DNA of 64,000 bases from Elusimicrobiota bacterium (GCA_016234805.1 JACRNU010000030.1:27406-91405), one strand, 5' to 3'. Shown: positions 11,498 to 34,554, counted from the first letter of the stretch. Notes: a model not told the origin generated them from the sequence alone. Made by a program: numbers and translations.

Positions 11498-13067
11498 CGG
11501 CAAGGCCTCCGGCCCTCTCTGCCTCTCGTGCCTTCCCAGCCTGACCGACGCAGTCGTTGCGGCTCTGTCCAGCGCGGCCCTGGGCCTTGCGGTCGCGGTC
11601 ATGCGGACCCTCTCCCGAGTCCCGGCATCGGACGACCTCCTGCTTCCAAGGAGGGCCTTCTACCCGTTCTTCGCGTTCTTCATCAAGGCCCAGGCCTCCC
11701 CAGCGGTCCGGGGCGCGCTCTCCTGGCTGGCTCTGGCCTTGACGCTCGCCAGCCTCCTGCTGGTCCTGTGGCGCCTGTGGGCCGGGTTCAAGCGCGGCAG
11801 GTCCGGCGCCATGGGCGTGTCCAGGGGCCGCGCGCCATGGCTTGCCGCTGTCGGTCTCTTGGCCGGAAGCCTGGCCTTCGCCGCCTTGGCCAGGTCCTCG
11901 ATCGCGACTTTCCTCGACATGCTCCAGAACGCGTGGTTCCTTCCCGAGAGTCTCGATATCCGCGAGCCCCCGCTCGCCTTCGTCCTGTCAGCCGTGCCCG
12001 TGTTCCTGGCTGTGGCCGCGATCCTGAGTCTGGCTGAGACAGCGTTCTCATCCGGTCCCTGGAAGACGGCCAGGCCGTGGAAAACGGCCTGCGGCTGGAC
12101 CACGGCCTTGGCCGCGTGCTGGCTGGCCGCGATGATCATGGCTCAAGGCTACGGCGCCGGGCTGAGCCTTGCCCAGTCCTCGGGAACCTCGGTGGGAACG
12201 CCTGGGAGCGCCTTCATCCTGGTGCTCACCGAGAAGGGAATCCCGGACTATTCAGTGCGCGAAGCGCCTTTGGCCGTGCCTGGACCGGTCGAGCGCGCTG
12301 AGGACGACCTAGCAGGGCTGGAGAGGTTCAGCCGGCTTCGGTCCCTGCAGAGGCTCCCGGCTCTGAGGCACGCCTATACGGGCCGTGCCGCTCTGGCGGA
12401 CGCGGACGGCATGCGGGCCTCGGCTTTGGCCGCCCTCGAGGCCGGGGACCCGTTGGCCGGGCTCCTGCTCTTGGGGAGCTTGTCTCACGCTCCCGCCAAC
12501 AAGGACAACCTGAGGATGCTCGAGACCCTGGCGGATGAGAAGCGCTGGCGGGTCGGTCCCCATGCCGCCTTCCTCCTGTCCGCTGCGTTCGCCAGGTTCG
12601 GCGTCGCTGACCGGGCCGGGTATTGGCTCGGCCGCGCTTCACAGGGCGATGCCGGCATCCCGGCCGGGCTTCTGGTGTCGCCCGATTCGGCCAAGCCTTC
12701 GAAGGTCCGGGGCAGGTTCGTGTTCGAAGGCGCGGCCGTCCCTGTCAGCGGAAGCCGCCAGAGAGGCGGAAGCGGTAAGGGAGAAGGTCTGCGGGTCGCG
12801 CTTTATTCCAGGGACCGCGCCATCCCCGCGGATCTCTCAGCCATGACCCTCGCGGCTTCCACGGTCCTCGACGCCAAGGGAGGTTTCGAGTTCCGCGACA
12901 TGCCTGGCGGCGACTATTCCCTGGCGCTCCTGCTCGGCACGGCCGAGTCTTCGACCGGACCCTTCCGGGCCGGCCCGGCCCGGGGCAGCCTCCGCGTGAG
13001 CGGCCACAAGGGCGACATCCGCGTCGAGGGCAAGGACGTGTCCTTGGCCCCCATCTTCCTGCGATGA
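11466..13067 (+). CDS. Hypothetical membrane protein upstream of, and overlapping, an ABC transporter operon.
   Basis: 533-aa ORF with several hydrophobic helices (LSWLALALTLASLLLVLW, LAFVLSAVPVFLAVAAILSLA) and a C-terminal soluble region. 4-nt overlap with the downstream ABC ATPase gene. Confidence 0.5.
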   Translation: MKNGAMIEGHDGKASGPLCLSCLPSLTDAVVAALSSAALGLAVAVMRTLSRVPASDDLLLPRRAFYPFFAFFIKAQASPAVRGALSWLALALTLASLLLVLWRLWAGFKRGRSGAMGVSRGRAPWLAAVGLLAGSLAFAALARSSIATFLDMLQNAWFLPESLDIREPPLAFVLSAVPVFLAVAAILSLAETAFSSGPWKTARPWKTACGWTTALAACWLAAMIMAQGYGAGLSLAQSSGTSVGTPGSAFILVLTEKGIPDYSVREAPLAVPGPVERAEDDLAGLERFSRLRSLQRLPALRHAYTGRAALADADGMRASALAALEAGDPLAGLLLLGSLSHAPANKDNLRMLETLADEKRWRVGPHAAFLLSAAFARFGVADRAGYWLGRASQGDAGIPAGLLVSPDSAKPSKVRGRFVFEGAAVPVSGSRQRGGSGKGEGLRVALYSRDRAIPADLSAMTLAASTVLDAKGGFEFRDMPGGDYSLALLLGTAESSTGPFRAGPARGSLRVSGHKGDIRVEGKDVSLAPIFLR

Positions 13068-13816
13068 TCGAGGTCCGCGGACTCAGCAAGCGCTTCTCCC
13101 CTGTCCAGGGTCTGCGCGGCATGGTCGGGGGGCTCTTTCGCGCCGCGCCGCAGGCCTCCGTGACCGCCCTGGACGAGGTGAGCTTTAGCGTGGGCAAGGG
13201 CGAGGTCTTCGGCCTGGTCGGCCCGAATGGAGCGGGCAAGACCACCCTGATCAAGGTCCTCGCCACCCTTGTCCTGCCTGATTCGGGGGATGCGGCCGTG
13301 GCCGGCCACGACATCCTGGCTGATCCTTGCCGAGTGAAGGCATCCATGGGGTTGGTGACCGGGGATGAGCGCAGTTTCTACTGGCGGTTGACGGGTTGGC
13401 AGAACCTCGAGTTCTTCGGCGCTTTCCAAGGATTGCCGGTTGGCAGGGTTAGGGAGCGGGTCCGGGGACTGGGACCGCTGTTGGATGGGGATGCTCTCGA
13501 CAGGAGGGTGGCTGAGTATTCGGCCGGGATGCGCCAGCGTCTCGGCCTCTTGAGGGCTCTGCTCCATGATCCTGAGGTCCTTTTGCTCGACGAACCCACG
13601 AAGAGCATCGACCCCGCTGGAGCGGCCATGGTGGGAAGGTTCGTCCGCGACGAGCTTGCTGGAAGGCAGGGCAAGTCCGTCCTGTTCGCCACGCACAATA
13701 TGGCCGAGGCCGAGGCTGTCTGCGGCCGTGTCGGGCTTCTTGTCCAAGGCAGGCTGGTCGCGCAAGGCGCGCCCCACGACATCAGGGAACGTCCGGAGCT
13801 TCTTTCCCATGGCTAA
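13064..13816 (+). CDS. ABC transporter ATP-binding protein.
   Basis: Walker A GPNGAGKTT, ABC signature YSAGMRQRLGL, Walker B LLLDEPT, and an H-loop. Confidence 0.9.
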   Translation: MIEVRGLSKRFSPVQGLRGMVGGLFRAAPQASVTALDEVSFSVGKGEVFGLVGPNGAGKTTLIKVLATLVLPDSGDAAVAGHDILADPCRVKASMGLVTGDERSFYWRLTGWQNLEFFGAFQGLPVGRVRERVRGLGPLLDGDALDRRVAEYSAGMRQRLGLLRALLHDPEVLLLDEPTKSIDPAGAAMVGRFVRDELAGRQGKSVLFATHNMAEAEAVCGRVGLLVQGRLVAQGAPHDIRERPELLSHG

Positions 13817-14612
13817 GACCGCGGCGTACCTGCGCAAGGCCCTGGGCGACGCGCGCAGCTACCGCCTGGGCTTCGGGTTGGCGCTTTTGAGCACTGTTTT
13901 CTCCGTGGTCTCGTATTTCTTCATTGACAAGCTCTTCGGCAGGCAGGTCGCGCCCCATCTCGCGCCGTTCGGGGTCAGCTACTTCTCCTACGTCCTGGTG
14001 GGGATGATGGCCAGCACTTACCTTGGAGGGGCTTTGGGCGCGGTCTCGAGCATGATGAGGGAAGAGCAGGTCTGGGGGACCTTCGAGGCCCTCCTGGCCA
14101 CGCCGACCGGGATATTCACCATCGCGTGCGCCATGGCTTCCTGGAACCTCATCATGGCCTCCCTGGAGACCGCGGTCTATGTCCTGGCCGGGGTCTTCGT
14201 CTTCGGAGTGGATTTCAGCAGCGTCAACCTGCCTGCCGCGCTGATCATCCTGTCCCTGGCCATGGTCTCTTTCTCGGCCATGGGGATCATCTCCGCTGCC
14301 TTCATCCTGGCCTTCAAGCGCGGCGACCCTCTCTCCATCATGATGAACCTCGGGATGGAGATACTGGGGGGGGTGTTCTTTCCGGTCACGATCCTTCCGG
14401 ATTGGCTCAAGGCTTTGTCATACCTTTTCCCCACCACCTACGCGGTCCGGTCCCTGGAGCTGGCGATCTACAGGGGCGCGGGGCTAGCGGACCTCCGGCA
14501 CGATGTGGCCGTGCTCGCCGTTCTGTCCGCGGTCTTGGTCCCCATGGCCTACCGGAGCCTGGGGGCGGCATTAGATTACGCCCGTAGGAAAGGCACGCTG
14601 GCGCAGTATTGA
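13809..14612 (+). CDS. ABC-2 type transporter permease.
   Basis: MAKTAAYLRKALGDARSYR followed by six predicted TM helices typical of the ABC-2 family. Start overlaps the ATPase gene by 8 nt. Confidence 0.7.
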   Translation: MAKTAAYLRKALGDARSYRLGFGLALLSTVFSVVSYFFIDKLFGRQVAPHLAPFGVSYFSYVLVGMMASTYLGGALGAVSSMMREEQVWGTFEALLATPTGIFTIACAMASWNLIMASLETAVYVLAGVFVFGVDFSSVNLPAALIILSLAMVSFSAMGIISAAFILAFKRGDPLSIMMNLGMEILGGVFFPVTILPDWLKALSYLFPTTYAVRSLELAIYRGAGLADLRHDVAVLAVLSAVLVPMAYRSLGAALDYARRKGTLAQY

Positions 14613-14619
14613 GCGCGGA

Positions 14620-15123
14620 TCAGAGGCGCTTCTCCATCGTGGACTCGTCTCCGGAACTCTCGACGACGTGAAAGCCCATCTCCCGATAGAGCGCGAGGGC
14701 TGCCCAAGCCCTGCGGTTCACCGACAGCGTTACGGCCTCGCCCTTCCGAGTCTTGACGTGGTCGAGGATCGCGGCGCAAAGGCTCCGGCCCAGGCCCTGG
14801 TGTCTGTAGAGCGGCTTGACCCAGACCCCGTCTATTCCCCATCGACCGCCGCCGAGCAGGGTGACGGTGGCCGTCCCGATGACCGTATCGCGCGTCAGCG
14901 CGACGAACCGGGCGCCTCCGGCGAGCTCGCCCTTGAGGCCTTCGGCGAATTCAGCTTGGGTCATCCCGGGCGCGCTGTTGAGGCGGCACAGCTCCGCGGC
15001 GTCGTCCATGGTGGCCGGCCTTACGACTGCGCGTTCCCGCAGCAGGAGCGTCCGTATGAGCCTGCGGCATCCCGATGCCTCCAGCAGGAACGATGCGACC
15101 CTGGTCGGCGGCCAAGGCGTCAC
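14620..15123 (-). CDS. GNAT family N-acetyltransferase.
   Basis: VWVKPLYRHQGLGRSLCAAILDHV is an acetyl-CoA binding motif (R/Q-x-x-G-x-G/A). Confidence 0.75.
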   Translation of the reverse strand: MTPWPPTRVASFLLEASGCRRLIRTLLLRERAVVRPATMDDAAELCRLNSAPGMTQAEFAEGLKGELAGGARFVALTRDTVIGTATVTLLGGGRWGIDGVWVKPLYRHQGLGRSLCAAILDHVKTRKGEAVTLSVNRRAWAALALYREMGFHVVESSGDESTMEKRL

Positions 15124-15150: not shown

Positions 15151-15834
15151 TCATCGGCTGCGCCAGACCAGCGTATCAAGCTCCTGGAGCTCAGCATCGA
15201 GCTCCAGCCAGGGCTGGCTGTCGAAAATGGAGCGCTGGCGCGCGCAGAAATAGGCCACCCGGATAATGCGCGGCTTGGCGATGAGCGACCGCCGGATGTT
15301 CTCCACGACCGCGCCGAAGGTCTTGGGCCCAAAAGGGTCGGAGAAGAAGAAGGCCGTGCCTTCCGACACATCGAACGATGCGGCATCGGCGCGGACGAAC
15401 TCCCCCCCCCCCCCCCTGAAGGTCCGCTTGTTCTCCATGGCGATCCGGAACAAGTCTTCGTTCAACTCGACTCCCACCGCCCTCTTCGGACGGAGCGTGG
15501 CTGCAAGAAAGACGGCCCTGCCCTGCCCGCATCCGAGGTCAATAAAGACGTCCTCTGGCCCCAGGGCGAGGAAGGCCAGGATTTTGTCCGCGGCGGCGTA
15601 GGAGATGGGATCGTACGGCTGCATGTCGCGGAATCCGCTCTCGTCGGCGTTGCGTCGCCACGGCAGGTTTGTCCTGATGCCGAGTCCCCGGTCGCGCCGA
15701 TGCTCCGCCACGACGACGGCGAAGTCCCGCGTCGTGTCCAGCAGATGCTGTCCCAGGCCCGATAGGAAGCGCCGGAAACTCTGCAAGAGCTTGAACGCCA
15801 GCGAATCCTTGACCCTCGCGCGGAGCGTCAGCAT
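15151..15834 (-). CDS. Class I SAM-dependent methyltransferase containing a 15-nt poly-C tract (GGGGG in the protein).
   Basis: VFIDLGCGQGRAVFLAA (motif I). The last gene of the minus-strand cluster; its start overlaps the upstream fusion gene by 7 nt. Confidence 0.65.
   Translation of the reverse strand: MLTLRARVKDSLAFKLLQSFRRFLSGLGQHLLDTTRDFAVVVAEHRRDRGLGIRTNLPWRRNADESGFRDMQPYDPISYAAADKILAFLALGPEDVFIDLGCGQGRAVFLAATLRPKRAVGVELNEDLFRIAMENKRTFRGGGGEFVRADAASFDVSEGTAFFFSDPFGPKTFGAVVENIRRSLIAKPRIIRVAYFCARQRSIFDSQPWLELDAELQELDTLVWRSR
15402..15416. repeat. Homopolymeric tract C15 (G15 on the coding strand) inside a methyltransferase CDS.
   Basis: Direct reading of gaactCCCCCCCCCCCCCCCtgaag; it encodes RGGGGEF. 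Confidence 0.8.
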
Positions 15835-18146
15835 GGGGCGCGAAGCTCCTTTTCCGGCGGCCGCCAGTCCGGGATGACGCCGATGCCGAAGCCCTTCTGA
15901 TCCCAGTCCTCCACGATCTCCTCGACGGGATGGGCGGCCTTGATCTCCCGCCAGAGCCTGGGTGATTCCTGGTCGCCGGTCGAGGGGTCGGGCACGATGT
16001 CGTGGAAGGCTATTATGCCTCCTTCCCGGACCAGGGGGGAGTAACGCTCAAAGTCGGATCTGACCGCGTCATAGGCGTGGTCGCCGTCGATGAAAAGGAA
16101 ATCCGCCTTCCTGCCGCCCAGCAGTTCCCGGACCCGTGCCAGGGTCCGGTCGCTCCCGGAGTCCGAGCGGACGAGCCTGATCGTCTGTCCCTTGAGCCCG
16201 ATCGAACGGTAGAGCGGGATCCTCGCGGCCGAGTATCCTTCGCCGCCTCCGAAGAAGGGCCCTGGGAGGTCCACGCTGACGAGGAGGGCGTCCTTTGCCG
16301 CGGCTCGGGAGAATAGGAACAGGGTCCCTCCGAGCTCGGTCCCGATCTCGACGATCACCTCGGGCTGGCGCGCCTTCAGGAGTTCGACGAGACGGATGAT
16401 CTCGCTCCTCACTTGAGCCGGCTGGAGGAGGCCCTCGAGTCCGTCGAAGGCGAGATCAGCCAGCCTGCCGGGGTCCCAGGTCAGGTCCGCGGCTTGGATG
16501 TCCCGCAGGTGAAGGGGGAGCTTGAGCAGGCGTTTGGCCGCGGCCGCGAGCCCGCCGGCGGAGCCGGGGCCGCGTTCGCGGACGACCCTGTCCCGCCAGC
16601 GACGTTCGAGTCGGTCGACGCCTTCCTCGCCGAGCAGGTCCGAGCTCTTGCTGCCGTAGTGGATGACCCAGACGTTGATGAGGGCGTAGAGCTTCCAGCC
16701 CAGGCGCTTCACGCGCTGGGTCAGGTCGATCCCTTCGTGACCGAGAAAGTATCTGCGGTCGAACTCCCCTGCCTCGGCCAGGGCGGACCGACGCGCCAGG
16801 AGGAACCCGCCTTCGAGATAGTCCACCTTGGCGAAGAAGAAGCCGTCCTTGAACCGGCCGCGCCAACGGGCGATGGTGTCGAGGATCCGATTCTCGCACC
16901 AGGAGTTGGGGAAGGCCTTGTTGGCGCGAAGGCAGAGGTCCCAAAGCACGCGCCGCCAGCCGGTCAGCACGACGCCGACCTCCCAGGCCTCATCCTTGTC
17001 CTCCGGCCGCTCGATCTCCCGGGGCATGGCGGCTCCCGCTTCGGGATGCTCCTCCATGAACCGCACGGACCTGGCCAGGGTGTCGGGCAGCATTTCCGTG
17101 TCCGGGTTGAGGAAAAGGACGAATTCTCCCCTGGCCAGGGCCACGGCCTGGTTGTGTCCGGAGCCGTAGCCCACGTTCTCTCGATTCTCGACTACTCGGA
17201 CTTCCGGGTATTTCTCCCGGACCATGGCGGCGGAGCCGTCGGAGGATGCGTTGTCCACCACGATGACCTCGAGGTCCAGGCCTCCCGCGTGCCGGAACAC
17301 GGAGGCGAGGCATTTGTCCAGGTAGTCCCTGACATTCCAGTTGACGATGGAGACCGTGAGCTTGAGGGCGGGACCGGCCTGGACCCTTGGGGCTGCAACC
17401 GGGATCCCCCGAAGAGTCCTCCCGAGGCGGAAGGCCAGCCGGTGGAGGGGATGAGGGATCGCGGACACCAGGAGCCCGAGGACGCGGTCCATGGGCTTGT
17501 CCAACGGAGTCCTGTCGCCCTTCCTGATCCGGGCCGCCACCCTGCCGAGGATCTCGGATTCCGTGACCTGGTCAAGGCCGTCCCCGCTGTCGGCTTTGAG
17601 GGTGAAGGTCCATCCGCCTTGGCCGGCCGAGGCGCCGACGATGCGGTGGGCGGCCATCCTGTCGTCCTTGGAGTAGAGGACGATGTCCCCTCTCCTGAGT
17701 CCGGCGGGCCCGGCCGGCCTGACTTCCAGCGTGTCGCCGTCCTTGATGATGGGGGACATGCTTGAGCCCCGCGCCTCGAGCCGGACCGAGGCGCCGCGTT
17801 CGAGCAGGGAGGCCGCGACCGAGGCCAGGTCAACGGCCCCGACGTTCAGGCCGTCCAGGCGGTTCTCAGCCACGCTCCCGCATCCTTTGTGTTCCGGAAG
17901 GAAAACTCCTGGACCGGGATCTCCCGGCAGAGCCTCGCGCACGATCCCAGAGCGGCCTCCATCAGCTTCTTGTCCCACCAGGGAGCGAAGGTGCAGCGCA
18001 GCAGGGCTGCCGCGGCCCCCGATGGGGACAGGGAGGCCAGGCCGTTGCTTTTTGCCTGCCGGAGGATGAAGAGCTTCTTGAGGGGGACGGCTCTGTTGGC
18101 CGCGAGCCGGTCCTCTCCGGGCCAAGGCGTGCCGCACAGCAGCCAT
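15828..18146 (-). CDS. Three-domain fusion protein: S24/S26 (LexA/signal-peptidase-like, Ser-His type) peptidase domain, a family-2 glycosyltransferase, and a class I SAM methyltransferase (TylF/cephalosporin-hydroxylase-like). True start probably internal.
   Basis: N-terminal: GSSMSPIIKDGDTLEV...RRGDIVLYS...AAHRIVG, an SPase I/LexA-like fold with His in place of the general-base Lys. Middle: KLTVSIVNWNVRDYLDKCLASVF...VIVVDNASSDGS...FLNPDTEM, a GT2 DXD-type domain. C-terminal: VIVEIGTELGGTLFLFS...FLFIDGDHAYDAVRSDFE...GGIIAFHDI, a methyltransferase. The first ~100 codons of the track ORF overlap the upstream kinase gene. Confidence 0.65.
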   Translation of the reverse strand: MAAVRHALARRGPARGQQSRPPQEALHPPAGKKQRPGLPVPIGGRGSPAALHLRSLVGQEADGGRSGIVREALPGDPGPGVFLPEHKGCGSVAENRLDGLNVGAVDLASVAASLLERGASVRLEARGSSMSPIIKDGDTLEVRPAGPAGLRRGDIVLYSKDDRMAAHRIVGASAGQGGWTFTLKADSGDGLDQVTESEILGRVAARIRKGDRTPLDKPMDRVLGLLVSAIPHPLHRLAFRLGRTLRGIPVAAPRVQAGPALKLTVSIVNWNVRDYLDKCLASVFRHAGGLDLEVIVVDNASSDGSAAMVREKYPEVRVVENRENVGYGSGHNQAVALARGEFVLFLNPDTEMLPDTLARSVRFMEEHPEAGAAMPREIERPEDKDEAWEVGVVLTGWRRVLWDLCLRANKAFPNSWCENRILDTIARWRGRFKDGFFFAKVDYLEGGFLLARRSALAEAGEFDRRYFLGHEGIDLTQRVKRLGWKLYALINVWVIHYGSKSSDLLGEEGVDRLERRWRDRVVRERGPGSAGGLAAAAKRLLKLPLHLRDIQAADLTWDPGRLADLAFDGLEGLLQPAQVRSEIIRLVELLKARQPEVIVEIGTELGGTLFLFSRAAAKDALLVSVDLPGPFFGGGEGYSAARIPLYRSIGLKGQTIRLVRSDSGSDRTLARVRELLGGRKADFLFIDGDHAYDAVRSDFERYSPLVREGGIIAFHDIVPDPSTGDQESPRLWREIKAAHPVEEIVEDWDQKGFGIGVIPDWRPPEKELRAPC

Positions 18147-18736
18147 CGCGAGCCGGACCTGCGCAGCACGATCCGGTCATCGCTCAACACCGGGATCTCC
18201 GGGCCGGACCCCCTCAGCAGGCGGGTCATGGTGGTCTTTCCTGCCCCGGAACTGCCGGCCAGGGCCACGCCCCCTTCCCCGACCGCGAGCCCGGCGGCGT
18301 GCAGGAGCAGGCCCGAGGACCCGAGGAGCGTCACGGTGAGCTGGCGGCTGATCAGGTCAAGGGTTTGGATGAGGGATGCTCCCGGAGCCTGACGCTGCAT
18401 GAGCAGGCGGTAGCGCCTGACCTTCCGGCCGTTCCGGATGCCCTTCCCTTCCGGGATCAGCACCCCGCAGGGCGGCTTGTTGCGCTGGGATGAGATGCGC
18501 AGGACCTCCTGTCCACGGCACGCGGTGACGCGCCAGAACACGGGGGTGTCGTAGACGACTCTGTCGCCGGCTCCGGCCTCGGCATGGCCCGGGGATATGG
18601 TCACGACCGCGTCCGGGTATTTATTCGTGACGAACTTGAGGTAGGCCGACATCCTGCTGTCGGTCCCGAGTTCGGGGATCCAGCGGCTCCGGAACTCCAC
18701 GACCGGACCCCCAAGTTCCAGCCTGAGGCTGGGCAC
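17846..18736 (-). CDS. HPr kinase/phosphorylase C-terminal-domain-like P-loop kinase (HprK-related).
   Basis: LLLHAAGLAVGEGGVALAGSSGAGKTTMTRLL is the Walker A region, in the arrangement seen in HprK C-terminal domains and in HprK-like kinases of RiPP clusters. Confidence 0.65.
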   Translation of the reverse strand: MPSLRLELGGPVVEFRSRWIPELGTDSRMSAYLKFVTNKYPDAVVTISPGHAEAGAGDRVVYDTPVFWRVTACRGQEVLRISSQRNKPPCGVLIPEGKGIRNGRKVRRYRLLMQRQAPGASLIQTLDLISRQLTVTLLGSSGLLLHAAGLAVGEGGVALAGSSGAGKTTMTRLLRGSGPEIPVLSDDRIVLRRSGSRWLLCGTPWPGEDRLAANRAVPLKKLFILRQAKSNGLASLSPSGAAAALLRCTFAPWWDKKLMEAALGSCARLCREIPVQEFSFRNTKDAGAWLRTAWTA

Positions 18737-18758: not shown

Positions 18759-18923
18759 CTAGCTTCTGCTGTAGGTGACGCGGCATCGGGAACACGCCCT
18801 GCCTGCGCAGCGCGAGGTGTTCGTGCTGCGCGCCGCGGACCTGCAGGCGGTGAGGATCTGCTCCTCGAGCGCGAGCTTGACCTGGACCATGGCGGGCTTC
18901 TGATACGGCTTCTTCTGGCTCAT
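18759..18923 (-). CDS. Candidate RiPP precursor peptide (54 aa): helical leader plus a Cys-rich, Ser/Arg-rich C-terminal core ending in Ser.
   Basis: Sequence MSQKKPYQKPAMVQVKLALEEQILTACRSAARSTNTSRCAGRACSRCRVTYSRS. The frame is taken from the tail of track ORF 18759..19277 and is too short to be called alone; my own reading of the raw text here differs by one base. An AGGAGA Shine-Dalgarno (18931-18936) sits 7 nt upstream of the ATG at 18923, which is 11 nt downstream of the radical SAM/SPASM stop. Confidence 0.5.
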   Translation of the reverse strand: MSQKKPYQKPAMVQVKLALEEQILTACRSAARSTNTSRCAGRACSRCRVTYSRS

Positions 18924-18934
18924 CTGCGGGTCTC

Positions 18935-20005
18935 CTATTGTTGCGTTTGTGCCGGTTCCTTGGAGCCGGCTTTCTTCCCGGCGAGGGCCTGGTGGCGCAG
19001 ACCGGCCTTGCGGCAAAGGGGTTCCACGATCCCTCCCAGGGACCGGTGCTCCAGCATGGCGTAGCCTGAGCACTGCTCGCAAAGAGGCGCTTTGTCGCAA
19101 GCAAGGCACTTTGGGGAAAGGCTTTCCTCCATCACGCGCCGGAAAAGGGGCATGGCTTCGCGCCACCCCGCTGAGAAGGAGCCCTTCCTGATGTCGTAGG
19201 CGAGGTTCGGGAAGGAATCGCAGGGCTGGAGCATGCCGTAGGGGTTGATGGTGAACACGATGGCGCCTGCCCCGCACAGGAGCAAGTCGCGGGCCGGGAC
19301 TTGGGAAAGCTCCCTGAGGAGTTCGCCGTATTCCTGCTTGGACTTCTCATCCGCGAGGTCCAGGGCCACGGTCTCCTCGGGGCTCAGCCGCAGTCCCCGG
19401 TTGTCGAAGCCTTCGTCGAGCCGGGGCACGAGGATGGTGTCGTAGGCGAGGCTGCGTCCCGGGTGCACGGCTTCGGCGGTGCCGCGCATGGCGGTCAGCT
19501 CGTGCTTGTTGAGGGACATCACCATGGTCTTGAGCGCGACATCCACTCCCCGCTCCTTCAATAGTCCGGCCGCGGCCAGGGAGCGGTCCAGGGAGCCCGG
19601 GCTGCGGGTGATCCGGTCATGGGTCGCGGCCGTGGCGCCGTAGATCGTGATCTCGACTCCGAGCGGCGGGTAATCGGCGAAGAGGTCCGCGAGCTCCGGG
19701 GTCAGGAGGGTGCCGTTGGTGAAGACCTCGATGAACATCCCTCGTCGGATCGCATGGAGGTAGATGTCCCGGAAGTCGGGCCGGAGCAGAGGCTCCCCGC
19801 CTGTCAGGAGAAGCCATAGGCAGCCGGCGTCCGCGACCTCGTCGAGGATGCGCCGGACCTCATCGAGGGAGAGCTCCTGGTCCCGCGCGGCGCGGTCTTC
19901 GGCCGGGATGCTGCAGTAGCAGTGGACGCAGTCCTGGTTGCAGCGGTAGGTCAGGGCCAGGGAGCCGAGATAGGGCAGCCGCAGGGACATGGCCTTCTCA
20001 TCCAT
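18935..20005 (-). CDS. Radical SAM/SPASM domain peptide-modifying enzyme.
   Basis: LTYRCNQDCVHCY is a CxxxCxxC radical SAM motif; the C-terminal SPASM-type Cys cluster is CLACDKAPLCEQCSGYA. Start placed at an internal Met (MDEK); the track ORF extends to 20056 and overlaps the PqqD gene. Confidence 0.75.
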   Translation of the reverse strand: MDEKAMSLRLPYLGSLALTYRCNQDCVHCYCSIPAEDRAARDQELSLDEVRRILDEVADAGCLWLLLTGGEPLLRPDFRDIYLHAIRRGMFIEVFTNGTLLTPELADLFADYPPLGVEITIYGATAATHDRITRSPGSLDRSLAAAGLLKERGVDVALKTMVMSLNKHELTAMRGTAEAVHPGRSLAYDTILVPRLDEGFDNRGLRLSPEETVALDLADEKSKQEYGELLRELSQVPARDLLLCGAGAIVFTINPYGMLQPCDSFPNLAYDIRKGSFSAGWREAMPLFRRVMEESLSPKCLACDKAPLCEQCSGYAMLEHRSLGGIVEPLCRKAGLRHQALAGKKAGSKEPAQTQQ

Positions 20006-20042
20006 GACGCGGCGGAACTCGCCGAACCCGGCTTGGGGGATC

Positions 20043-20330
20043 TTAGCGCAGGGCATGGCTCTTCACCAGGTCCTTGGCGGCGAGGGCTCTCAGGAAATCC
20101 AGGGTGTCTTCCTCGGCGATCTGAGCAGCCACCTCGAAGCGCTCGCGGATGAGCTCCGCCGCCTGCGCCGCCGTACGGCGCCCATCCAGGGCGTCCCAGA
20201 GGAGGGCGCCGGTCTCGTTGAGCCGCCAGACCACGGCCTCATCCTGGTCCACGAGCACGGCCTCGTCTTCGATGAGCTTGAAGAGGATGTCCGGGTTGCG
20301 GACGGGCCGGTCCTGAAGAGAGAGCTTCAT
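20043..20330 (-). CDS. PqqD-family protein (RiPP recognition element-like peptide chaperone), copy 1.
   Basis: 95 aa: ...FKLIEDEAVLVDQDEAVVWRLNETGALLWDALDGRRTAAQAAELIRERF..., a PqqD fold signature. 4-nt overlap with the upstream B12-rSAM gene. Confidence 0.8.
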   Translation of the reverse strand: MKLSLQDRPVRNPDILFKLIEDEAVLVDQDEAVVWRLNETGALLWDALDGRRTAAQAAELIRERFEVAAQIAEEDTLDFLRALAAKDLVKSHALR

Positions 20331-23197
20331 CGGGACACCATGGCGTCAAGGGCGGTGGCCGCGGCTCGGTAGAGCTCCCGGCCGGCCTTGCCGTAGCGGC
20401 GCTCGGCAAGGAGCCCGCGTCCCAGCCGCCAGTGCAGGTCGGCTGAGTCGAGCCCCAGGCGCCTGGCTTTCCTGAAGTGGGAGAGGGCTTCGCCGGCTTT
20501 CCCCTGCCGCTCGGCGATGAGCCCCAGTTGGAAGAATGCGCCTGCTGAATCAGGGGAGAGGTCCAGGACCGCGCGGAAATGAGAGGCCGCTTCCTCCGGA
20601 GAACCTCCGGAGGCGAGCAGCACGGCTCCCAACCCGAAATGAGCGTCCTCGATCGCGGGGGAAAGCTCCAGGGCCTTCCTGAACAGGCGTTCGGCTTCGG
20701 TCCAGTCTTTACGTGCGCGGTTCACGTTGCCAAGGCCGCAGAGCGCGAGGGCGTTAGCCGGGTCGAGCTTCAAGGCGTCCTTGTACGCTTTCTCGGCTCC
20801 GGCCCGATCATCCATGAACTCCAGGACCGGTCCTGGGTTGTTGTAGGCGGTCCTGTAGGACGGGTCGAGACCGACCGCCTTGCGATAGGAGAGCCTGGCC
20901 GAATCGATTTCTCCCTTCTCGAGGCCCGCAAGGGCCGCGAGGTAATGCCGGGCGGCGGGCGGCACGGACCAATCCGAGGACTGAAGGCGGGCCTTGAGCT
21001 CGTCTCCCAGGTGCTTGAACCGCAGGGGGGTGAAGCCGCCCTCCACGGAATACGAGATGGTCGTGCATTCCGGTTTGAGGCCCAGTCCGGCAAGCCGCTG
21101 GGAAAGGCGCTCCGGAGCGATCCAGGGCTCGCGGTCCGGAGCGAGGTCGTCCGTGACTTTCCTGGTCAGCAGGTAATCCAGATCGATGTCGAGCAGGACC
21201 GGGCCCGGGAACTTGGGCAGGCCGGCCAGTTCGCAGACGATGGTCTTCCTGCCCGCGAGTTCCGTGACCAGCAGGTCTCCTTGCGCGCGCACGAGCGTTC
21301 GCGGCCGGGCAAGCCTCTTGAGCGTGCGAAGGACGTGCCTGCGCTCCTTATGGCTGGACAGGGTCCCGTCCGGCACCACCCAGTAGAACTCGGACACGAT
21401 CCCATCCTGCATGGCAGGACAAACGAAATTGCCGATGGTGACCAGGCGCTCCTTCGGGGTCTCGACCGGATTCCACAGGGGCCGGCTCGCGAGCAGGCTG
21501 TCCAATTCGGCCTTGGTGCCGGCTTCGAGGATCTGGGTGATGTCCTTCTCCGGGACCCAGCCGAAATCGATGTGCGCGTCGAGGTGGATGAGGGGCAGTC
21601 CCGAGAGCCCGAGCTTGCGCCATACCCCGAGGACCTCGTTGTGGTCTTCCACGAGATGGGTGGACCTCCGGTGCATCAGGCCTTTGCAGAGCTGTTCCAG
21701 CCGGCCGGCCTCCATGGGGCTCATCGGGCCTCTTGCCTGGCGGAACTCGGTGAAGAACTTGAACGGCAGGCCTCCGTCCCTGTCGAATTCCAGCCCCCAC
21801 CGTGCCGGGTCGTCGTAGACTGGGCACTTGGGCGTCAGATAGTACGTGTTGAAGGCGGGATGGTCGATGGAGGCGCGGTTCTCGGAGATGAAAGCCACGG
21901 TCTCCAACCCTTCCTCGACGGTCTCTCCCGGCAGACCGAAGATGGTCTGGAGGCCCACCGCGACTCCGGCTGCGTGACAGTCCCTGATGACCCTTTCCGA
22001 GACCGCCTGCTTGTTCCCTTTGAGCACGAGGCCGCAGACCCTGTCCGAGGCGGACTCGAAACCGAAATTGACCTGCTTGCAGCCCGCTTCCCTGGCCAGG
22101 TCGAAGATGTCCCGGGTGAAGCCGTTGTCGAGCCTGGCCATGGTCCACCAGGGCACGGCGAAATCCTCCTGGATGAGCCTCGTCGAGACCTCGCGCATCT
22201 GGCTCGGGGACATGGTGGCGTTGGAGACCAGCAGGAGCGCCGGCTTGTGGCGTTCCGCAAGGGCCTTGAAGTCCCTCGCCACCAGGTCCGGCGATTTGGC
22301 CCGGTAGGACGGCTTGGGCAGGGGCAGGTCCACGCAGTAGGCGCAGCGGTTCCAGTAGCAGCCCCGGGAGGTCTCGCAGGTCAGGGCAAGGCCTCCTTGC
22401 CTGCTGCTTGCGTAGCTCGCGAGCGGAAGTCCTTCGAAGTCGGGAGTGGGCAGGAGGTCGAGGTCCTCCTCGCTGGTGACGGGGCTGCGGATCCAGGCGC
22501 CGTTGGCATGGCGGATCAGGTTGGGCACGGTCGAGACAGGACCCCGGGACTCGAGCGCCGAGACCAGGCCCAGGAGGGGGGTCTCGCCCTCGCCGGTCAC
22601 GACGAAGTCGAAGAGCGCCGCCCAATCAGGGCGGGCCATGATCTCCTCCGCGAAGAGGGTTGCCCATTGGCCGCCGAGGGCGATCTTCACCTCAGGGGAC
22701 CGCCGCTTGAGCAGGCGGCAAAGCGTCAGGCCGGCCAAGGCTTGGGAAGGGGAGACGATCGAAAGGCCGATGAGCGATGGCGTGCCTGAGAGGATTCCCT
22801 TGGCCCCCGGGTCGGCCAGGAAGAACCGCAGGAATGTGTTCTCGTCCTCATCGTCCAGATACCTGAAAAGGATGCCGCTGGAAAGGATCCGTTCGATGAA
22901 GTAGAAGGAGGAATTGGTCCTGTTGTCGTACGGGCTGCCGTATTGGTAGTCTCCGGCGTTCTGCGGCAGGAGGGATGAGTAGTAGAGCCCTTGGGCCTTC
23001 CCGTCAAAGAGCTCGTTCATCCGCCGCCGCGCCGTGTCCGCGGAACCGTCCCAGGAGTCCCGGTAGGCGAGGTTGAGGTCGAGCTGCGAGACGCCGATCC
23101 CCCTGGACTTCAGGAAGCCGGCCAGGGCCGGCGTTCCCAGCGGCGGGGCGTCGTATTCGTAGTCGGGAGGGATGACAAGGCGGACTTCCGGCATCAA
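20327..23197 (-). CDS. B12-binding radical SAM protein with a C-terminal TPR repeat domain (956 aa).
   Basis: N-terminal B12-binding region (IGLSIVSPSQALAGLTLCRLLKRRSPEVKIALGG). Radical SAM core with a CETSRGCYWNRCAYC cysteine motif. C-terminal ~250 aa with TPR-like repeats (AYNNPGPVLEFMDDRAGAEKAYKDALKLDP..., HFGLGAVLLASGG...). Confidence 0.75.
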   Translation of the reverse strand: MMPEVRLVIPPDYEYDAPPLGTPALAGFLKSRGIGVSQLDLNLAYRDSWDGSADTARRRMNELFDGKAQGLYYSSLLPQNAGDYQYGSPYDNRTNSSFYFIERILSSGILFRYLDDEDENTFLRFFLADPGAKGILSGTPSLIGLSIVSPSQALAGLTLCRLLKRRSPEVKIALGGQWATLFAEEIMARPDWAALFDFVVTGEGETPLLGLVSALESRGPVSTVPNLIRHANGAWIRSPVTSEEDLDLLPTPDFEGLPLASYASSRQGGLALTCETSRGCYWNRCAYCVDLPLPKPSYRAKSPDLVARDFKALAERHKPALLLVSNATMSPSQMREVSTRLIQEDFAVPWWTMARLDNGFTRDIFDLAREAGCKQVNFGFESASDRVCGLVLKGNKQAVSERVIRDCHAAGVAVGLQTIFGLPGETVEEGLETVAFISENRASIDHPAFNTYYLTPKCPVYDDPARWGLEFDRDGGLPFKFFTEFRQARGPMSPMEAGRLEQLCKGLMHRRSTHLVEDHNEVLGVWRKLGLSGLPLIHLDAHIDFGWVPEKDITQILEAGTKAELDSLLASRPLWNPVETPKERLVTIGNFVCPAMQDGIVSEFYWVVPDGTLSSHKERRHVLRTLKRLARPRTLVRAQGDLLVTELAGRKTIVCELAGLPKFPGPVLLDIDLDYLLTRKVTDDLAPDREPWIAPERLSQRLAGLGLKPECTTISYSVEGGFTPLRFKHLGDELKARLQSSDWSVPPAARHYLAALAGLEKGEIDSARLSYRKAVGLDPSYRTAYNNPGPVLEFMDDRAGAEKAYKDALKLDPANALALCGLGNVNRARKDWTEAERLFRKALELSPAIEDAHFGLGAVLLASGGSPEEAASHFRAVLDLSPDSAGAFFQLGLIAERQGKAGEALSHFRKARRLGLDSADLHWRLGRGLLAERRYGKAGRELYRAAATALDAMVSR

Positions 23198-23484
23198 TTA
23201 GCGTGCACGCTTTTTATGGTCTCGAACTGCGTCAGGATGGTCCCAAGATCCGCCTCGACCTCGGTGCCGGTCGTCGCGTACTCCTCCAGCAGGGTCGTCT
23301 TGATCTGCCCCACGGTGCGCTGTCCGTCGATGAGTTCCCAGACCCGGGCCGCGGTGTCGTTCAAGGTGAAGATGCTCCTCAGGTCGCCCACCTTCTCCCG
23401 GATGGGGACGAGGATGTACTCATCCGCGATGCGGCGGCCCACGAAGTCGGGGTTCTTGCTGTAGCGGCGTTCCAATAGTTGCAT
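23194..23484 (-). CDS. PqqD-family protein, copy 2.
   Basis: MQLLERRYSKNPDFVGRRIADEYILVPI...LNDTAARVWELIDGQRTVGQIKTTLLEEYA is a PqqD-like fold. The ATG at 23484 has a GAGGGAG RBS. 4-nt overlap with the downstream B12-rSAM start. Confidence 0.65.
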   Translation of the reverse strand: MQLLERRYSKNPDFVGRRIADEYILVPIREKVGDLRSIFTLNDTAARVWELIDGQRTVGQIKTTLLEEYATTGTEVEADLGTILTQFETIKSVHAN

Positions 23485-24779: not shown

Positions 24780-24845
24780 GATATCACGCGGACGGAGCAT
24801 CCCCGTCCCGGCCGCCTTCCGTGAAATGGTATCGTTGGGTCCGGC

Positions 24846-29097: not shown

Positions 29098-29128
29098 GCA
29101 GAGCGCAATGCTATCATATCCTCATCCC

Positions 29129-32687: not shown

Positions 32688-32696
32688 CGGAGCCCC

Positions 32697-34529: not shown

Positions 34530-34554
34530 CGCCGTCGGCGACGGCGCCCCGGGG

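What the first reader, a model, noticed from the sequence alone, without database searches (positions are those of the whole stretch)
15828..18146. Unusual three-domain fusion: Ser-His type S24/S26 peptidase + GT2 glycosyltransferase + class I (TylF-like) methyltransferase
A signal-peptidase/LexA-like domain (GSSMSP...GDIVLY...AAHRIVG, with His where bacterial SPase I has the catalytic Lys, as in ER/archaeal/SipW-type enzymes) is fused to a GT2 domain and a C-terminal methyltransferase. Sitting directly after the precursor and kinase genes, it could combine leader removal with glycosylation and O-methylation in one polypeptide. The first ~100 codons of the track ORF overlap the kinase gene in another frame. 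The real start is therefore probably an unidentified non-ATG codon just upstream of the peptidase motif, or programmed frameshifting/fusion with the kinase ORF is involved.
Basis: partly seen in the sequence, partly recalled or inferred. Interest (0 to 1): 0.6.

Follow-up and report, generated by a model that had tools for sequence, protein, structure and literature searches.

The report
Leader peptidase fused to sugar-tailoring enzymes
One gene in a peptide natural-product cluster of an Elusimicrobia genome joins a signal-peptidase-like protease, of a type shown in 2026 to cut leaders off such peptides, to a glycosyltransferase and a methyltransferase; the fusion is real, starts at an ordinary GTG codon, and is a rare variant of a widespread, largely unstudied system.

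Summary
The minus-strand gene encodes three domains: an N-terminal Ser/His/Asp signal-peptidase-like domain, a GT2 glycosyltransferase and a Methyltransf_24/CmcI-type methyltransferase.

The true start is GTG at 17873 (681 aa), not the ATG at 18146. It has an AAGGA Shine-Dalgarno motif 9 nt upstream. Third-position GC falls to 0.56 upstream of it in this frame, against 0.86 in the gene body. Homologues begin at the same place. No frameshift is needed.

The peptidase domain is homologous along its whole length to LppS (hhalign 99.6 %, E 1e-23). LppS is the SipW-type, RRE-dependent leader peptidase of the Bacillota "linear polyphosphorylated peptide" (LPP) RiPPs described in 2026. The catalytic residues align.

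The gene lies in a conserved cassette: PqqD, radical-SAM/SPASM enzyme, a roughly 55-aa precursor, an ScmC/HprK-like P-loop protein, then this peptidase. I found that cassette in 12 contexts, in Elusimicrobia, Omnitrophica, a Hermodarchaeia (archaeal) MAG and unassigned metagenome contigs.

The peptidase module is also found alone, or fused to GNAT, NTP_transf_5 or GT2. The S24–GT2–MT form is a singleton. It probably arose by deletion of a second GT2 copy that the closest relative still has.

Verdict: a new variant of a known kind, of moderate interest.

The parts
15828..17873 (-). Trifunctional gene (681 aa plus stop): LppS-like peptidase, GT2 and methyltransferase. The GTG start at 17873 overlaps the upstream gene by 28 nt.
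   Evidence: An identical 681-aa protein (P0001) is annotated in NCBI as 'glycosyltransferase [Elusimicrobia bacterium]'. AAGGA lies 9 nt upstream of the GTG. This is the only in-frame ATG/GTG/TTG between the upstream stop region and the catalytic Ser. GC3 is 0.86 in the body and 0.56 upstream in this frame.
17394..17873 (-). N-terminal SpI/S26B-like (LppS-like) peptidase domain, aa 1-160. Layout: alpha1 helix 13-25, beta core, C-terminal helical hairpin 127-155. Catalytic Ser38 (17760-17762), His76 (17646-17648), Asp101 (17571-17573); invariant Asp95 (17589-17591).
16596..17360 (-). GT2 glycosyltransferase domain (aa 172-426), with the VVDNASSDGS and FLNPDTE motifs.
   Evidence: PF00535 E 7.7e-25 and PF13641 E 1.5e-13. 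Matches to PDB GT2 enzymes SpsA and chondroitin synthase. Motifs read directly from the translation.
15981..16415 (-). Class I SAM methyltransferase domain (aa 487-631) of the Methyltransf_24/CmcI type, with motifs VVEIGTELGGT and FIDGDH.
   Evidence: PF13578 E 1.5e-14 and PF04989 E 4.4e-8. PDB 6g7d 'methyltransferase domain protein' E 1e-6.
17846..18736 (-). ScmC/HprK-related P-loop protein (GSSGAGKTT), the putative peptide kinase. Its 3' end overlaps the target's start, which suggests translational coupling.
   Evidence: TIGR04355 35 bits and TIGR04249 22 bits, both sub-threshold. Orthologues carry PF27840 ScmC. Only P-loop matches in the PDB.
18759..18923 (-). Precursor peptide (54 aa): MSQKKPYQKPAMVQVKLALEEQILTACRSAARSTNTSRCAGRACSRCRVTYSRS. 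It has a YxKP RRE-binding motif, three Cys and a C-terminal Ser.
   Evidence: Conserved counterparts at the same position in L001, L002, L004, L005, L007, L014 and L016.
18935..20056 (-). Radical SAM/SPASM peptide maturase.
   Evidence: PF04055 E 3e-24. Broad sub-threshold similarity to SPASM maturases such as MftC, GeoRSP and ScmE/F.
20043..20330 (-). PqqD-type RiPP recognition element, LppB-like.
   Evidence: PF05402 E 6e-17. 31 % identity to LppB, E 1e-12.
20327..23197 (-). B12-binding radical SAM enzyme fused to UPF0489 and TPR domains (956 aa).
   Evidence: TIGR03975 'RiPP maturation radical SAM C-methyltransferase' 118 bits, sub-threshold. The same content is split into two genes in L002 and L004.
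23194..23484 (-). Second PqqD-type RRE (start codon uncertain).
   Evidence: PF05402 E 1e-12. 24 % identity to LppB.
15151..15834 (-). Separate DOT1-like class I methyltransferase, overlapping the target's stop by 7 nt.
   Evidence: An orthologue sits at the same position in L001.
14620..15123 (-). GNAT acetyltransferase. In relatives this domain is fused to the peptidase.
13064..14612 (+). ABC-2 type transporter (ATPase plus permease), convergent with the cluster.
   Evidence: The same pair is present in L001, L002 and L004.
29009..30025 (+). NTP_transf_5 nucleotidyltransferase (LppN/PsmN-type family), about 5.5 kb from the cluster.
   Evidence: PF14907 E 2e-27. The family is fused to, or adjacent to, the peptidase in relatives.

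Best explanation
The gene (15828..17873, GTG start, 681 aa) encodes a cytoplasmic, trifunctional RiPP-maturation enzyme.

**Peptidase domain.** The N-terminal domain is an LppS-like, SEC11/SipW-type Ser-His-Asp peptidase. By homology, it removes the leader of the adjacent 54-aa precursor once the leader's YxKP motif is held by a PqqD recognition element. The likely cut is at the conserved ...L-x-[A/G/V/S]|C junction, that is, around Thr25-Ala26|Cys27.

**GT2 and methyltransferase domains.** The fused GT2 and CmcI-like methyltransferase domains would glycosylate the peptide and O-methylate the sugar.

**Other enzymes in the pathway.** The two radical-SAM enzymes would modify the Cys-rich core, by thioether cross-linking or C-methylation. 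The ScmC/HprK-like P-loop protein would phosphorylate a Ser, possibly the invariant C-terminal one.

**Origin of the fusion.** The closest relative has two genes here, S24-GT2 and GT2-MT. The three-domain arrangement most likely arose by deletion of the second GT2 copy.

**What is shown and what is inferred.**
- Shown: the domain identities, the catalytic residues, the start codon, the conserved neighbourhood and the homology to LppS.
- Inferred: the cleavage site, the substrates of GT2 and MT, and the order of steps.
For: **Start codon**
- GTG at 17873 with AAGGA 9 nt upstream. It is the only canonical in-frame start before the catalytic Ser.
- GC3 is 0.56 upstream in this frame, 0.86 in the gene body, and 0.84 in the kinase frame over the overlap.
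- Homologue N-termini coincide with it.
- Relatives also overlap the upstream gene by 1-47 nt.

**Peptidase domain**
- AF2 pLDDT 88, with Foldseek hits to the LexA/signal-peptidase fold.
- Profile against SEC11A/C, E about 1e-8.
- hhalign against LppS: 99.6 %, E 1e-23. BLASTP: E 8e-14 over residues 15-140 against 6-133 of LppS.
- The alignment pairs S38 with S29, H76 with H68 and D101 with D93.
- Conservation in the family is 45/46, 46/46 and 30/46 respectively, with D95 at 46/46.
- LppS S29A, H68A and D93A abolish RRE-dependent leader cleavage (PMC13381572).

**Genomic context**
- In 12 contexts the peptidase gene occurs with a PqqD gene: window, L001, L002, L004, L005/6, L007, L008, L010, L012/13, L014, L015, L016.
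- In 10 of the 12 it directly abuts an ScmC/HprK-like gene. In L007 that gene lies about 7.7 kb away, and in L008 the abutting 295-aa gene has no Pfam hit.
- A radical-SAM gene is present in 11 of the 12.

**Fusions**
- The same peptidase module is fused to GT2, GNAT+GT2, GNAT, NTP_transf_5 and GNAT+NTP_transf_5. This ties those tailoring activities to the peptidase's pathway.

**Methyltransferase**
- Its best matches are sugar O-methyltransferase-type families: CmcI/rhamnosyl O-MT and 6g7d.

**Origin by deletion**
- The locus is collinear with L001 apart from one GT2 copy.
- GT2 amino-acid identities are window-P0003 71 %, window-P0002 63 % and P0003-P0002 66 %.
Against: - Single-sequence peptidase scores are below the curated thresholds: PF00717 22.4 bits against 23.3, and TIGR02228 29.3 against 51.85.
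- No biochemical data exist for this protein or for any radical-SAM-linked member of the family.
- The cluster lies about 9 kb from Wza/Wzz-type polysaccharide export genes. The GT2 and MT domains could therefore act on a glycan rather than the peptide.
- The precursor does not match the LPP consensus (YxxPxVLxHQxIxFETxxS), so the cleavage site cannot be carried over directly.
- The transporter is ABC-2 type, not MsbA-like.
- The three-domain architecture is seen only once, in a MAG. P0001 is probably the same assembly, so an assembly chimera between two GT2 paralogues cannot be formally excluded.
Confidence: 0.72

Rival explanations
1. The GT2 and methyltransferase domains serve exopolysaccharide or capsule synthesis, not peptide tailoring. 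Their fusion to the peptidase reflects co-regulation or co-localisation with a polysaccharide locus, and the peptide itself is not glycosylated.
For: - Wza-like and Wzz/GNVR genes lie at 31986..34529.
- Polysaccharide genes flank the cassette in L001, L004, L007 and L012/13.
- LPP clusters of Bacilli are likewise embedded in capsule loci, and their boundaries are unclear (PMC13381572).
- The GT2 hits are to generic polysaccharide enzymes.
Against: - The peptidase module is covalently fused to four different tailoring domain types, and it is the peptide-specific core gene of the cassette.
- Fusion to a leader peptidase is hard to explain for a pure polysaccharide enzyme.
- Related lasso peptides carry glycosylated phospho-Ser (PMC6993621, cited; the detail is from my own knowledge).
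Confidence: 0.2
2. The three-domain ORF is an assembly or binning artefact. Two adjacent genes, S24-GT2 and GT2-MT as in L001, were collapsed across their paralogous GT2 regions.
For: - The nearest relative has two genes here.
- The window locus equals L001 minus one GT2 copy.
- The architecture is a singleton among 5.8 billion proteins.
- The source is a MAG.
Against: - The ORF is uninterrupted and in frame, with uniform GC3 of 0.86.
- In L001 the two GT2 copies share 66 % amino-acid identity, and each matches the window gene at only 74-77 % DNA identity. I judge that too divergent for an assembler to collapse.
- An in-frame junction at homologous positions is what natural unequal recombination would give.
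Confidence: 0.07
3. The N-terminal domain does not cleave the leader. It is either a catalytically silent docking or chaperone module, like S. pyogenes SipA, or a LexA/UmuD-like self-cleaving regulatory domain.
For: - The top Foldseek hit is SipA, an inactive signal-peptidase homologue, followed by LexA and UmuD'.
- PF00717 is the Pfam family hit.
- In LppS the alpha1 helix docks the RRE-leader complex, so a docking role exists alongside catalysis.
Against: - Ser, His and Asp are conserved in 45-46 of 46 members and align with residues essential in LppS.
- His replaces the Lys of the LexA-type dyad.
- Only about 12 residues precede the alpha1 helix, which leaves no LexA-like cleavage-site region.
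Confidence: 0.06
4. The protein is made as a fusion with the upstream kinase-like ORF by programmed frameshifting, or it starts at the ATG at 18146.
For: The open frame extends 91 codons upstream of the GTG.
Against: - GC3 in that upstream stretch is 0.56 in the target frame and 0.84 in the kinase frame.
- A good SD-GTG start is present.
- Homologues start at the equivalent position and are called as separate genes in every relative.
- Stand-alone 150-170-aa peptidases are the commonest form of the family.
Confidence: 0.02

Closest known systems
LppS, the SpI-like leader peptidase of the linear polyphosphorylated peptide (LPP) clusters of Bacillota (Popov et al., Nat Commun 2026, PMC13381572)
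   Same: - Full-length homology: hhalign 99.6 %, E 1e-23.
- The Ser/His/Asp catalytic residues align.
- An N-terminal alpha1 helix and a C-terminal helical hairpin are present.
- No classical membrane anchor.
- The neighbourhood holds a discrete PqqD RRE, an HprK-like P-loop protein, an NTP_transf_5 gene and an ABC exporter.
- The precursor has a YxxP leader motif.
- Polysaccharide loci lie nearby.
   Different: - LppS is a stand-alone 151-aa protein. Here the module is fused to GT2 and MT.
- LPP clusters have no radical-SAM enzymes.
- The LPP leader consensus (…FET|xxS) is not met.
- The transporter is ABC-2, not MsbA-like.
- The paper states that LPPs are restricted to Bacillota. This example is from Elusimicrobia, with relatives in Omnitrophica and a Hermodarchaeia (archaeal) MAG.
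- Only 23 % identity.
SEC11 / SipW / archaeal type I signal peptidases (MEROPS S26B)
   Same: - LexA/signal-peptidase fold.
- SM-P, HR and GD(N) motifs.
- Ser-His-Asp chemistry in place of Ser-Lys.
   Different: - No N-terminal transmembrane anchor.
- The domain is fused to enzymes that need cytoplasmic co-substrates (UDP-sugar, SAM), so the active site must face the cytoplasm.
- The substrate is a RiPP leader presented by an RRE, not a Sec signal peptide.
- It scores below the TIGR02228 cutoff.
HprK-like kinase and NTP-transferase tailoring of paeninodin- and pseudomycoidin-type lasso peptides
   Same: A PqqD RRE, an HprK-related P-loop protein and an NTP_transf_5 gene occur together. The invariant C-terminal Ser of the precursor recalls the phosphorylated (and glycosylated) C-terminal Ser of those peptides.
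   Different: There is no lasso cyclase and no B2 cysteine peptidase. The leader peptidase is a serine enzyme. Radical-SAM enzymes are present.
SynChlorMet (Scm) and GeoRSP cassettes defined by TIGRFAMs/NCBIfam (uncharacterised)
   Same: The gene logic is the same: PqqD-like, SPASM radical-SAM and ScmC/HprK-related genes around a small peptide. Orthologues carry Pfam PF27840 (ScmC).
   Different: All NCBIfam scores are far below cutoff: ScmC 22 against 125, ScmD 36 against 100, ScmE/F 70-74 against 400, GeoRSP rSAM 74 against 400. I know of no peptidase-GT2-MT component described for those cassettes (my recollection, not checked here).
Protease-tailoring or protease-transporter fusions in other RiPP pathways (PatA/PatG of cyanobactins, C39-peptidase ABC exporters of the LanT type); from my own knowledge
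   Same: The principle is the same: the leader-removing protease is fused to another maturation or export function.
   Different: Those use different protease clans (subtilisin-like S8, papain-like C39). None is an S26-type domain fused to a glycosyltransferase and a methyltransferase.

Membership tests
LppS-like SpI-type RiPP leader peptidases (PMC13381572) | Sequence homology to LppS over the whole domain | tested here: met
   hhalign of A2 against LppS: 99.6 %, E 1e-23, 129 columns. BLASTP: E 8e-14, 23 % identity, residues 15-140 against 6-133.
LppS-like SpI-type RiPP leader peptidases (PMC13381572) | Catalytic Ser, His and Asp (LppS S29, H68, D93) | tested here: met
   S38, H76 and D101 align with them. 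Family conservation is 45/46, 46/46 and 30/46, and D95 (LppS D87) is 46/46.
LppS-like SpI-type RiPP leader peptidases (PMC13381572) | [quoted passage not shown] | tested here: met
   PqqD x2, an ScmC/HprK-related gene, NTP_transf_5 at 29009..30025 and an ABC-2 pair. The exporter type differs from MsbA.
LppS-like SpI-type RiPP leader peptidases (PMC13381572) | RRE-dependent cleavage of the precursor leader | not testable with these tools
   This needs a co-expression or in-vitro cleavage assay.
LPP RiPP family sensu stricto | Precursor consensus YxxPxVLxHQxIxFETxxS, no radical-SAM enzymes, Bacillota host | tested here: not met
   The precursor has YQKP but then follows ...VKLALEEQILTACRS. Two radical-SAM genes are present. 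The source is an Elusimicrobia MAG.
MEROPS S26B / TIGR02228 archaeal-type signal peptidase I | Score at or above the curated cutoff | tested here: not met
   29.3 bits against 51.85. The family profile does still hit SEC11A/C at E about 1e-8.
MEROPS S26B / TIGR02228 archaeal-type signal peptidase I | Membrane anchor with an extracytoplasmic active site | tested here: not met
   The maximum 19-residue Kyte-Doolittle hydropathy is 1.36 in this domain and reaches 1.6 in only 4 of 46 family members. The domain is fused to cytoplasmic-type enzymes.
Peptidase S24 (LexA/UmuD), PF00717 | Pfam gathering score and a Ser-Lys dyad | tested here: not met
   22.4 bits against 23.3. His, not Lys, occupies the general-base position in 46/46 members. 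The fold is shared.
GT2 glycosyltransferases, PF00535 | Pfam gathering score and nucleotide-sugar/metal motifs | tested here: met
   88.2 bits against 23.3. VVDNASSDGS and FLNPDTE are present and conserved in P0002-P0006.
Methyltransf_24 / CmcI class I methyltransferases | Pfam gathering scores | tested here: met
   PF13578 55.2 bits against 26.3. PF04989 33.5 bits against 23.2.
TylF macrocin O-methyltransferase family | Match to the TylF family model | tested here: not met
   No TylF-family match is listed at E <= 0.01 in the Pfam scan. 'TylF-like' holds only at the level of metal-dependent class I O-methyltransferases.
SynChlorMet cassette (NCBIfam TIGR04248-04251) | Members score above the equivalog cutoffs | tested here: not met
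   ScmC 22.4 against 125, ScmD 35.8 against 100, ScmE 70.4 against 400, ScmF 73.8 against 400.

The most novel reading that the evidence does not exclude
The LppS-like peptidase module could be the substrate-recruitment hub of a much larger, cross-domain RiPP superfamily, not just the protease. That superfamily is the radical-SAM + HprK-like + SpI-peptidase cassette found in Elusimicrobia, Omnitrophica, a Hermodarchaeia archaeal MAG and unassigned metagenome contigs.

On this reading, its alpha1 helix docks the RRE-leader complex. Whatever tailoring domain is fused to it (GT2, MT, GNAT, NTP-transferase) is then delivered to the core peptide. The product would be a thioether-cross-linked, phospho-glyco-methylated peptide, functionally tied to (or attached to) the neighbouring exopolysaccharide.

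The fusions would then supply the secondary modifications that the LPP study could not identify.
Probability: 0.3. Interest if true: 0.75.

Novelty: new variant of a known kind. Interest (0 to 1): 0.5.

Why it matters
**Extends a newly described enzyme class.** SipW-type serine peptidases were recognised as RiPP leader peptidases only in 2026. They were described as stand-alone enzymes of Bacillota pathways without radical-SAM chemistry.

This locus shows three things about the same module:
- It is the core of a radical-SAM-containing cassette found well beyond Bacillota, including in a Hermodarchaeia (archaeal) MAG.
- It is repeatedly fused to glycosyl-, methyl-, acetyl- and nucleotidyl-transferases.
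- It sits next to polysaccharide loci in several lineages.

**What the fusions add.** They are Rosetta-stone evidence that these tailoring enzymes belong to the peptide pathway. The LPP study could not settle that point, because its clusters are embedded in glycosyltransferase-rich capsule loci.

**Experimental handle.** The locus offers a compact construct for testing coupled leader removal and glyco-methylation: precursor, PqqD, ScmC-like protein and one trifunctional enzyme.

Tried and rejected
**Steps that gave nothing useful**
- AlphaFold2 of the full 681-aa protein without an alignment gave pLDDT 35.8 and was unusable. Only the domain model built on alignment A2 was used.
- Profile A1, used for the 1.84-billion-protein search, unintentionally kept GT2 columns. 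The hit list mixed GT2 and peptidase hits, so only hits to profile positions 1-155 were used.
- A word-indexed search with the peptidase domain alone found just 2 proteins. A later search with alignment A2 found 224.
The single-protein scan of GTDB genomes found no relative, so I have no census over isolate genomes.
- Literature searches for SynChlorMet, ScmC, PF14907, 'HPr kinase + radical SAM' and 'S24 + leader peptidase' found nothing relevant. The relevant paper came up through 'paeninodin + kinase'.

**Hypotheses rejected**
- Frameshift or fusion with the kinase ORF, and the ATG start at 18146: rejected on GC3, the SD-GTG start and homologue N-termini.
- A LexA-like self-cleaving domain: rejected because the general base is His and no cleavage-site region is present.
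- A housekeeping secretory signal peptidase: rejected because there is no membrane anchor, the fusion partners are cytoplasmic-type enzymes, and the gene is always found with ScmC-like and PqqD genes.
- Duplication in the L001 lineage as the origin of the difference from the window: disfavoured. The window GT2 is closer to P0003's GT2 (71 %) than P0003's is to P0002's (66 %).

Full report
**1. Observation**

The minus strand carries an ORF of 772 codons from the ATG at 18146 to the stop at 15828. Pfam finds three kinds of domain in it (ORF numbering):
- GT2: PF00535, E 7.7e-25; PF13641, E 1.5e-13.
- Class I methyltransferase: PF13578 Methyltransf_24, E 1.5e-14; PF04989 CmcI/rhamnosyl O-MT, E 4.4e-8.
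- A weak Peptidase_S24 match: PF00717, E 1.1e-4, 22.4 bits against a gathering score of 23.3.

NCBIfam adds the archaeal-type signal peptidase I model TIGR02228 at 29.3 bits, against a cutoff of 51.85. The GT2 and MT domains are therefore secure. The peptidase call needed more work.

**2. Start codon**

The first 91 codons of the ORF overlap the upstream gene (17846..18736) in another frame.
- Between the ATG at 18146 and the catalytic-Ser motif, the in-frame canonical start codons are at 18137, 18125, 17978, 17942 and 17873.
- GTG at 17873 is preceded by AAGGA at −14 to −10. It lies 28 nt upstream of the end of the upstream gene.
- Third-position GC is 0.86 in the body of the gene. It is only 0.56 in the stretch 18146..17874 read in the target frame. 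The same stretch read in the upstream gene's frame gives 0.84.
- The public database holds an identical 681-aa protein with exactly this start: P0001, 'glycosyltransferase [Elusimicrobia bacterium]'.
- The N-termini of homologues align within a few residues of it.
- In relatives the peptidase gene also overlaps the preceding gene by 1-47 nt and is called separately.

The gene is therefore 15828..17873. It is probably translationally coupled to the upstream gene, and there is nothing to suggest frameshifting.

**3. The N-terminal domain**

*The family.* A profile search of 1.84 billion representative proteins found many 150-200-aa proteins matching the domain at E of 1e-30 or better, together with fusion proteins. 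In a 46-member alignment (A2), G36, M39, P41, H76, R77, D95 and G110 are invariant. S38 is Ser in 45 of 46 members.

*Fold and closest solved structures.*
- The A2 profile hits human SEC11C and SEC11A best in the PDB (E 5.7e-9 and 1e-8). The GSM-P, HR and GD motifs are aligned. Bacterial SPase I and LexA follow.
- An AlphaFold2 model built on A2 has mean pLDDT 88.
- Foldseek against the PDB returns SipA, LexA, UmuD', SpsB and SEC11A/C, all at probability 1.0.

The domain has the LexA/signal-peptidase fold, with His where bacterial SPase I and LexA have Lys.

*No membrane anchor.* Unlike real signal peptidases, the family mostly lacks a transmembrane anchor. Only 4 of 46 members reach a 19-residue hydropathy of 1.6, and this protein reaches 1.36.

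**4. Genomic context**

Directly upstream on the same strand lie, in order:
- a PqqD gene (about 23194..23484);
- a B12-radical-SAM/UPF0489/TPR protein (20327..23197);
- a second PqqD (20043..20330);
- a radical-SAM/SPASM enzyme (18935..20056);
- a 54-aa peptide gene (18759..18923);
- a P-loop protein with weak HprK-related/ScmC similarity (17846..18736).

Downstream lie a DOT1-like methyltransferase, a GNAT and a convergent ABC-2 transporter. An NTP_transf_5 gene lies at 29009..30025, and Wza/Wzz-like export genes at 31986..34529.

*The cassette recurs.* The order PqqD, rSAM/SPASM, roughly 55-aa peptide, ScmC (PF27840), peptidase is seen in:
- an Elusimicrobia MAG (L001);
- a Logan contig (L002);
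- an Omnitrophica MAG (L004);
- a Hermodarchaeia (archaeal) MAG (L005/L006);
- further contigs (L007, L010, L012/13, L014, L015, L016).

A variant without radical SAM occurs in L008.

*The precursors.* They share YxKPxhxxhxLxxxExxLx[A/G/V/S]C. In the radical-SAM-linked cassettes they also share about three Cys and an invariant C-terminal Ser.

**5. Modularity of the peptidase**

The module occurs in several forms:
- alone (P0121 and most family members);
- fused to GT2 (P0003);
- fused to GNAT+GT2 (P0005);
- fused to GNAT (L004 7726-8679, and P0157, P0167, P0172, P0218, P0252, P0288, P0291);
- fused to NTP_transf_5 in either order (P0174, P0182, P0196);
- fused to GNAT+NTP_transf_5 (P0193);
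- fused to a C25 propeptide domain (P0232).

The S24-GT2-MT architecture is unique to P0001 and the window: no other protein covers more than 77 % of the query.

*How the three-domain form arose.*
- In L001 the same position holds two genes, S24-GT2 (P0003, 455 aa) and GT2-MT (P0002, 540 aa).
- The window locus is collinear with L001 apart from one GT2 copy.
- The window GT2 is 71 % identical to P0003's GT2 and 63 % to P0002's. Those two are 66 % identical to each other.
- Along the protein, similarity switches from P0003-like to P0002-only at about residue 430.

The simplest reading is that the ancestor had both genes, and a deletion or unequal recombination between the GT2 paralogues joined GT2a to the MT.

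**6. Comparison with what is known**

*The LPP family.* Popov et al. (Nat Commun 2026, PMC13381572) described the 'linear polyphosphorylated peptide' family in Bacillota.
- Its core genes are an archaeal-type (SipW-like) signal peptidase LppS, a discrete RRE LppB, an HprK-like kinase LppK, an NTP transferase LppN and an MsbA-like exporter. The clusters are embedded in capsular polysaccharide loci.
- Deleting lppS stops processing of the precursor.
- LppS cleaves only in the presence of LppB.
- The S29A, H68A and D93A mutants are inactive.
- The alpha1 helix of LppS is modelled to dock the RRE-leader sheet.

*Homology to LppS.* I took the LppS sequence from the paper's Supplementary Data 1.
- The A2 profile aligns to it at 99.6 % probability, E 1e-23.
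- The window domain aligns at E 8e-14 over residues 15-140 against 6-133 of LppS.
- The alignment pairs S38 with S29, H76 with H68, D95 with D87 and D101 with D93.
- The AF2 model has the equivalent N-terminal helix at residues 13-25.
- The PqqD at 20043..20330 is 31 % identical to LppB.

The N-terminal domain is therefore a member of the LppS-like peptidase family.

*Why the cluster is not an LPP cluster in the strict sense.*
- It has two radical-SAM enzymes.
- Its leader consensus is different.
- Its transporter is ABC-2 type.
- It comes from Elusimicrobia, whereas the paper describes LPPs as restricted to Bacillota.

It also fails the curated cutoffs of the SynChlorMet and GeoRSP NCBIfam models.

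**7. Mechanism**

The first three steps are inferred; the last two are speculative.
- The PqqD protein binds the YQKP leader motif and presents the precursor to the alpha1 helix and active site of the peptidase domain.
- Cleavage probably occurs at the conserved junction before the invariant Cys (…ILTA|CRS…). Position −1 is A, G, V or S across the family, the small residue expected of signal-peptidase-type enzymes. It could instead fall one residue earlier (T|A), by analogy with FET|A in LppA.
- The fused GT2 would then add a sugar, and the CmcI-like domain would O-methylate it. The methyltransferase's closest relatives are sugar O-methyltransferase-type families.
- The ScmC-like P-loop protein may phosphorylate a Ser. 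The invariant C-terminal Ser recalls paeninodin-type phosphorylation. In the Elusimicrobia precursors the Ser in C-R-S would be core position 3, as in LppA.
- S24-GNAT fusions suggest N-acetylation of the newly exposed N-terminus in other members.

**8. Caveats and rivals**
- The GT2 and MT domains might serve the nearby polysaccharide pathway (about 0.2).
- An assembly chimera across GT2 paralogues cannot be excluded without reads (about 0.07).
- A non-catalytic or self-cleaving role for the domain is unlikely, given the conserved triad (about 0.06).
- Frameshift fusion with the kinase-like ORF is effectively excluded.

**9. Verdict**

The finding is real and its interpretation is essentially right. 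It is a new variant of a very recently described kind. The LppS-type leader peptidase is here recruited into a radical-SAM RiPP cassette outside Bacillota and fused to glycosyl- and methyl-transferase domains.

The particular three-domain fusion is a lineage-specific event. The broader pattern is the more valuable result: a widespread cassette, combinatorial fusions of the peptidase module, and recurrent linkage to polysaccharide loci. Interest 0.5.

Noticed in passing
window 18759..18923; L001 8881-9045; L002 8992-9153; L004 6690-6848; L005 6872-7039; L014 6795-6983; L016 3974-4162: The roughly 55-aa precursors form a conserved family: a YxKP leader motif, a conserved small residue followed by Cys about 20 residues after the Tyr, about three Cys, and an invariant C-terminal Ser. 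No literature on this family turned up in my searches.
   Followed up: partly
window 20327..23197 (-): This 956-aa protein fuses a B12-binding radical-SAM domain with a UPF0489 (PF12640) domain and TPR repeats. In L002 and L004 the same content is split into two adjacent genes, rSAM and UPF0489-TPR. This is a second fusion/fission event in the cluster.
   Followed up: partly
window 31986..35364; L001 18195-21368; L004 1-521 and 14033-21108; L007 9838-17649; L012 208-3696: Wza/Wzz/Wzy-type polysaccharide export and sugar-nucleotide genes lie within about 10 kb of the cassette in several unrelated lineages. This mirrors the capsule-locus embedding reported for LPP clusters in Bacilli.
   Followed up: partly
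L005 1-5334; L006 128-2239; L007 1932-7424; protein P0232: Very large Peptidase_C25 (gingipain-like) proteins sit immediately next to the PqqD gene in the Hermodarchaeia (L005/L006) and L007 cassettes. One family member (P0232) fuses the LppS-like domain to a C25 propeptide domain. This may be a second protease partner.
   Followed up: no
L004 9759-11275: The Omnitrophica GT2 orthologue (P0004) looks rearranged. A 59-aa N-terminal GT2 fragment precedes a 424-aa ORF whose C-terminal GT2 half comes before a second, complete GT2. This could be a pseudogene, a duplication or a mis-assembly.
   Followed up: no
window 24846..28516 and 36799..40896: Several long ORFs have no Pfam match: 619 aa, 613 aa and 1365 aa. 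The first two lie between the cluster and the NTP_transf_5 gene. I did not check whether they are real genes.
   Followed up: no
window 40985..41797 (-); L004 13031-13684: An AbiEii-type nucleotidyltransferase toxin gene occurs near the locus in both the window and the Omnitrophica contig.
   Followed up: no
window 23559..25265 (-): A GDSL/SGNH hydrolase-like ORF lies immediately upstream of the first PqqD gene. Its listed GTG start is probably too far upstream, because it overlaps the PqqD ORF extension.
   Followed up: no
L008 6725-9946: A radical-SAM-free version of the cassette: PqqD, a 295-aa protein with no Pfam hit, the LppS-like peptidase, a convergent NTP_transf_5, a 53-aa peptide (MEKKRYKKPEV…) and an Rce1-like CPBP protease. 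It is closer in logic to the Bacillota LPP clusters.
   Followed up: no
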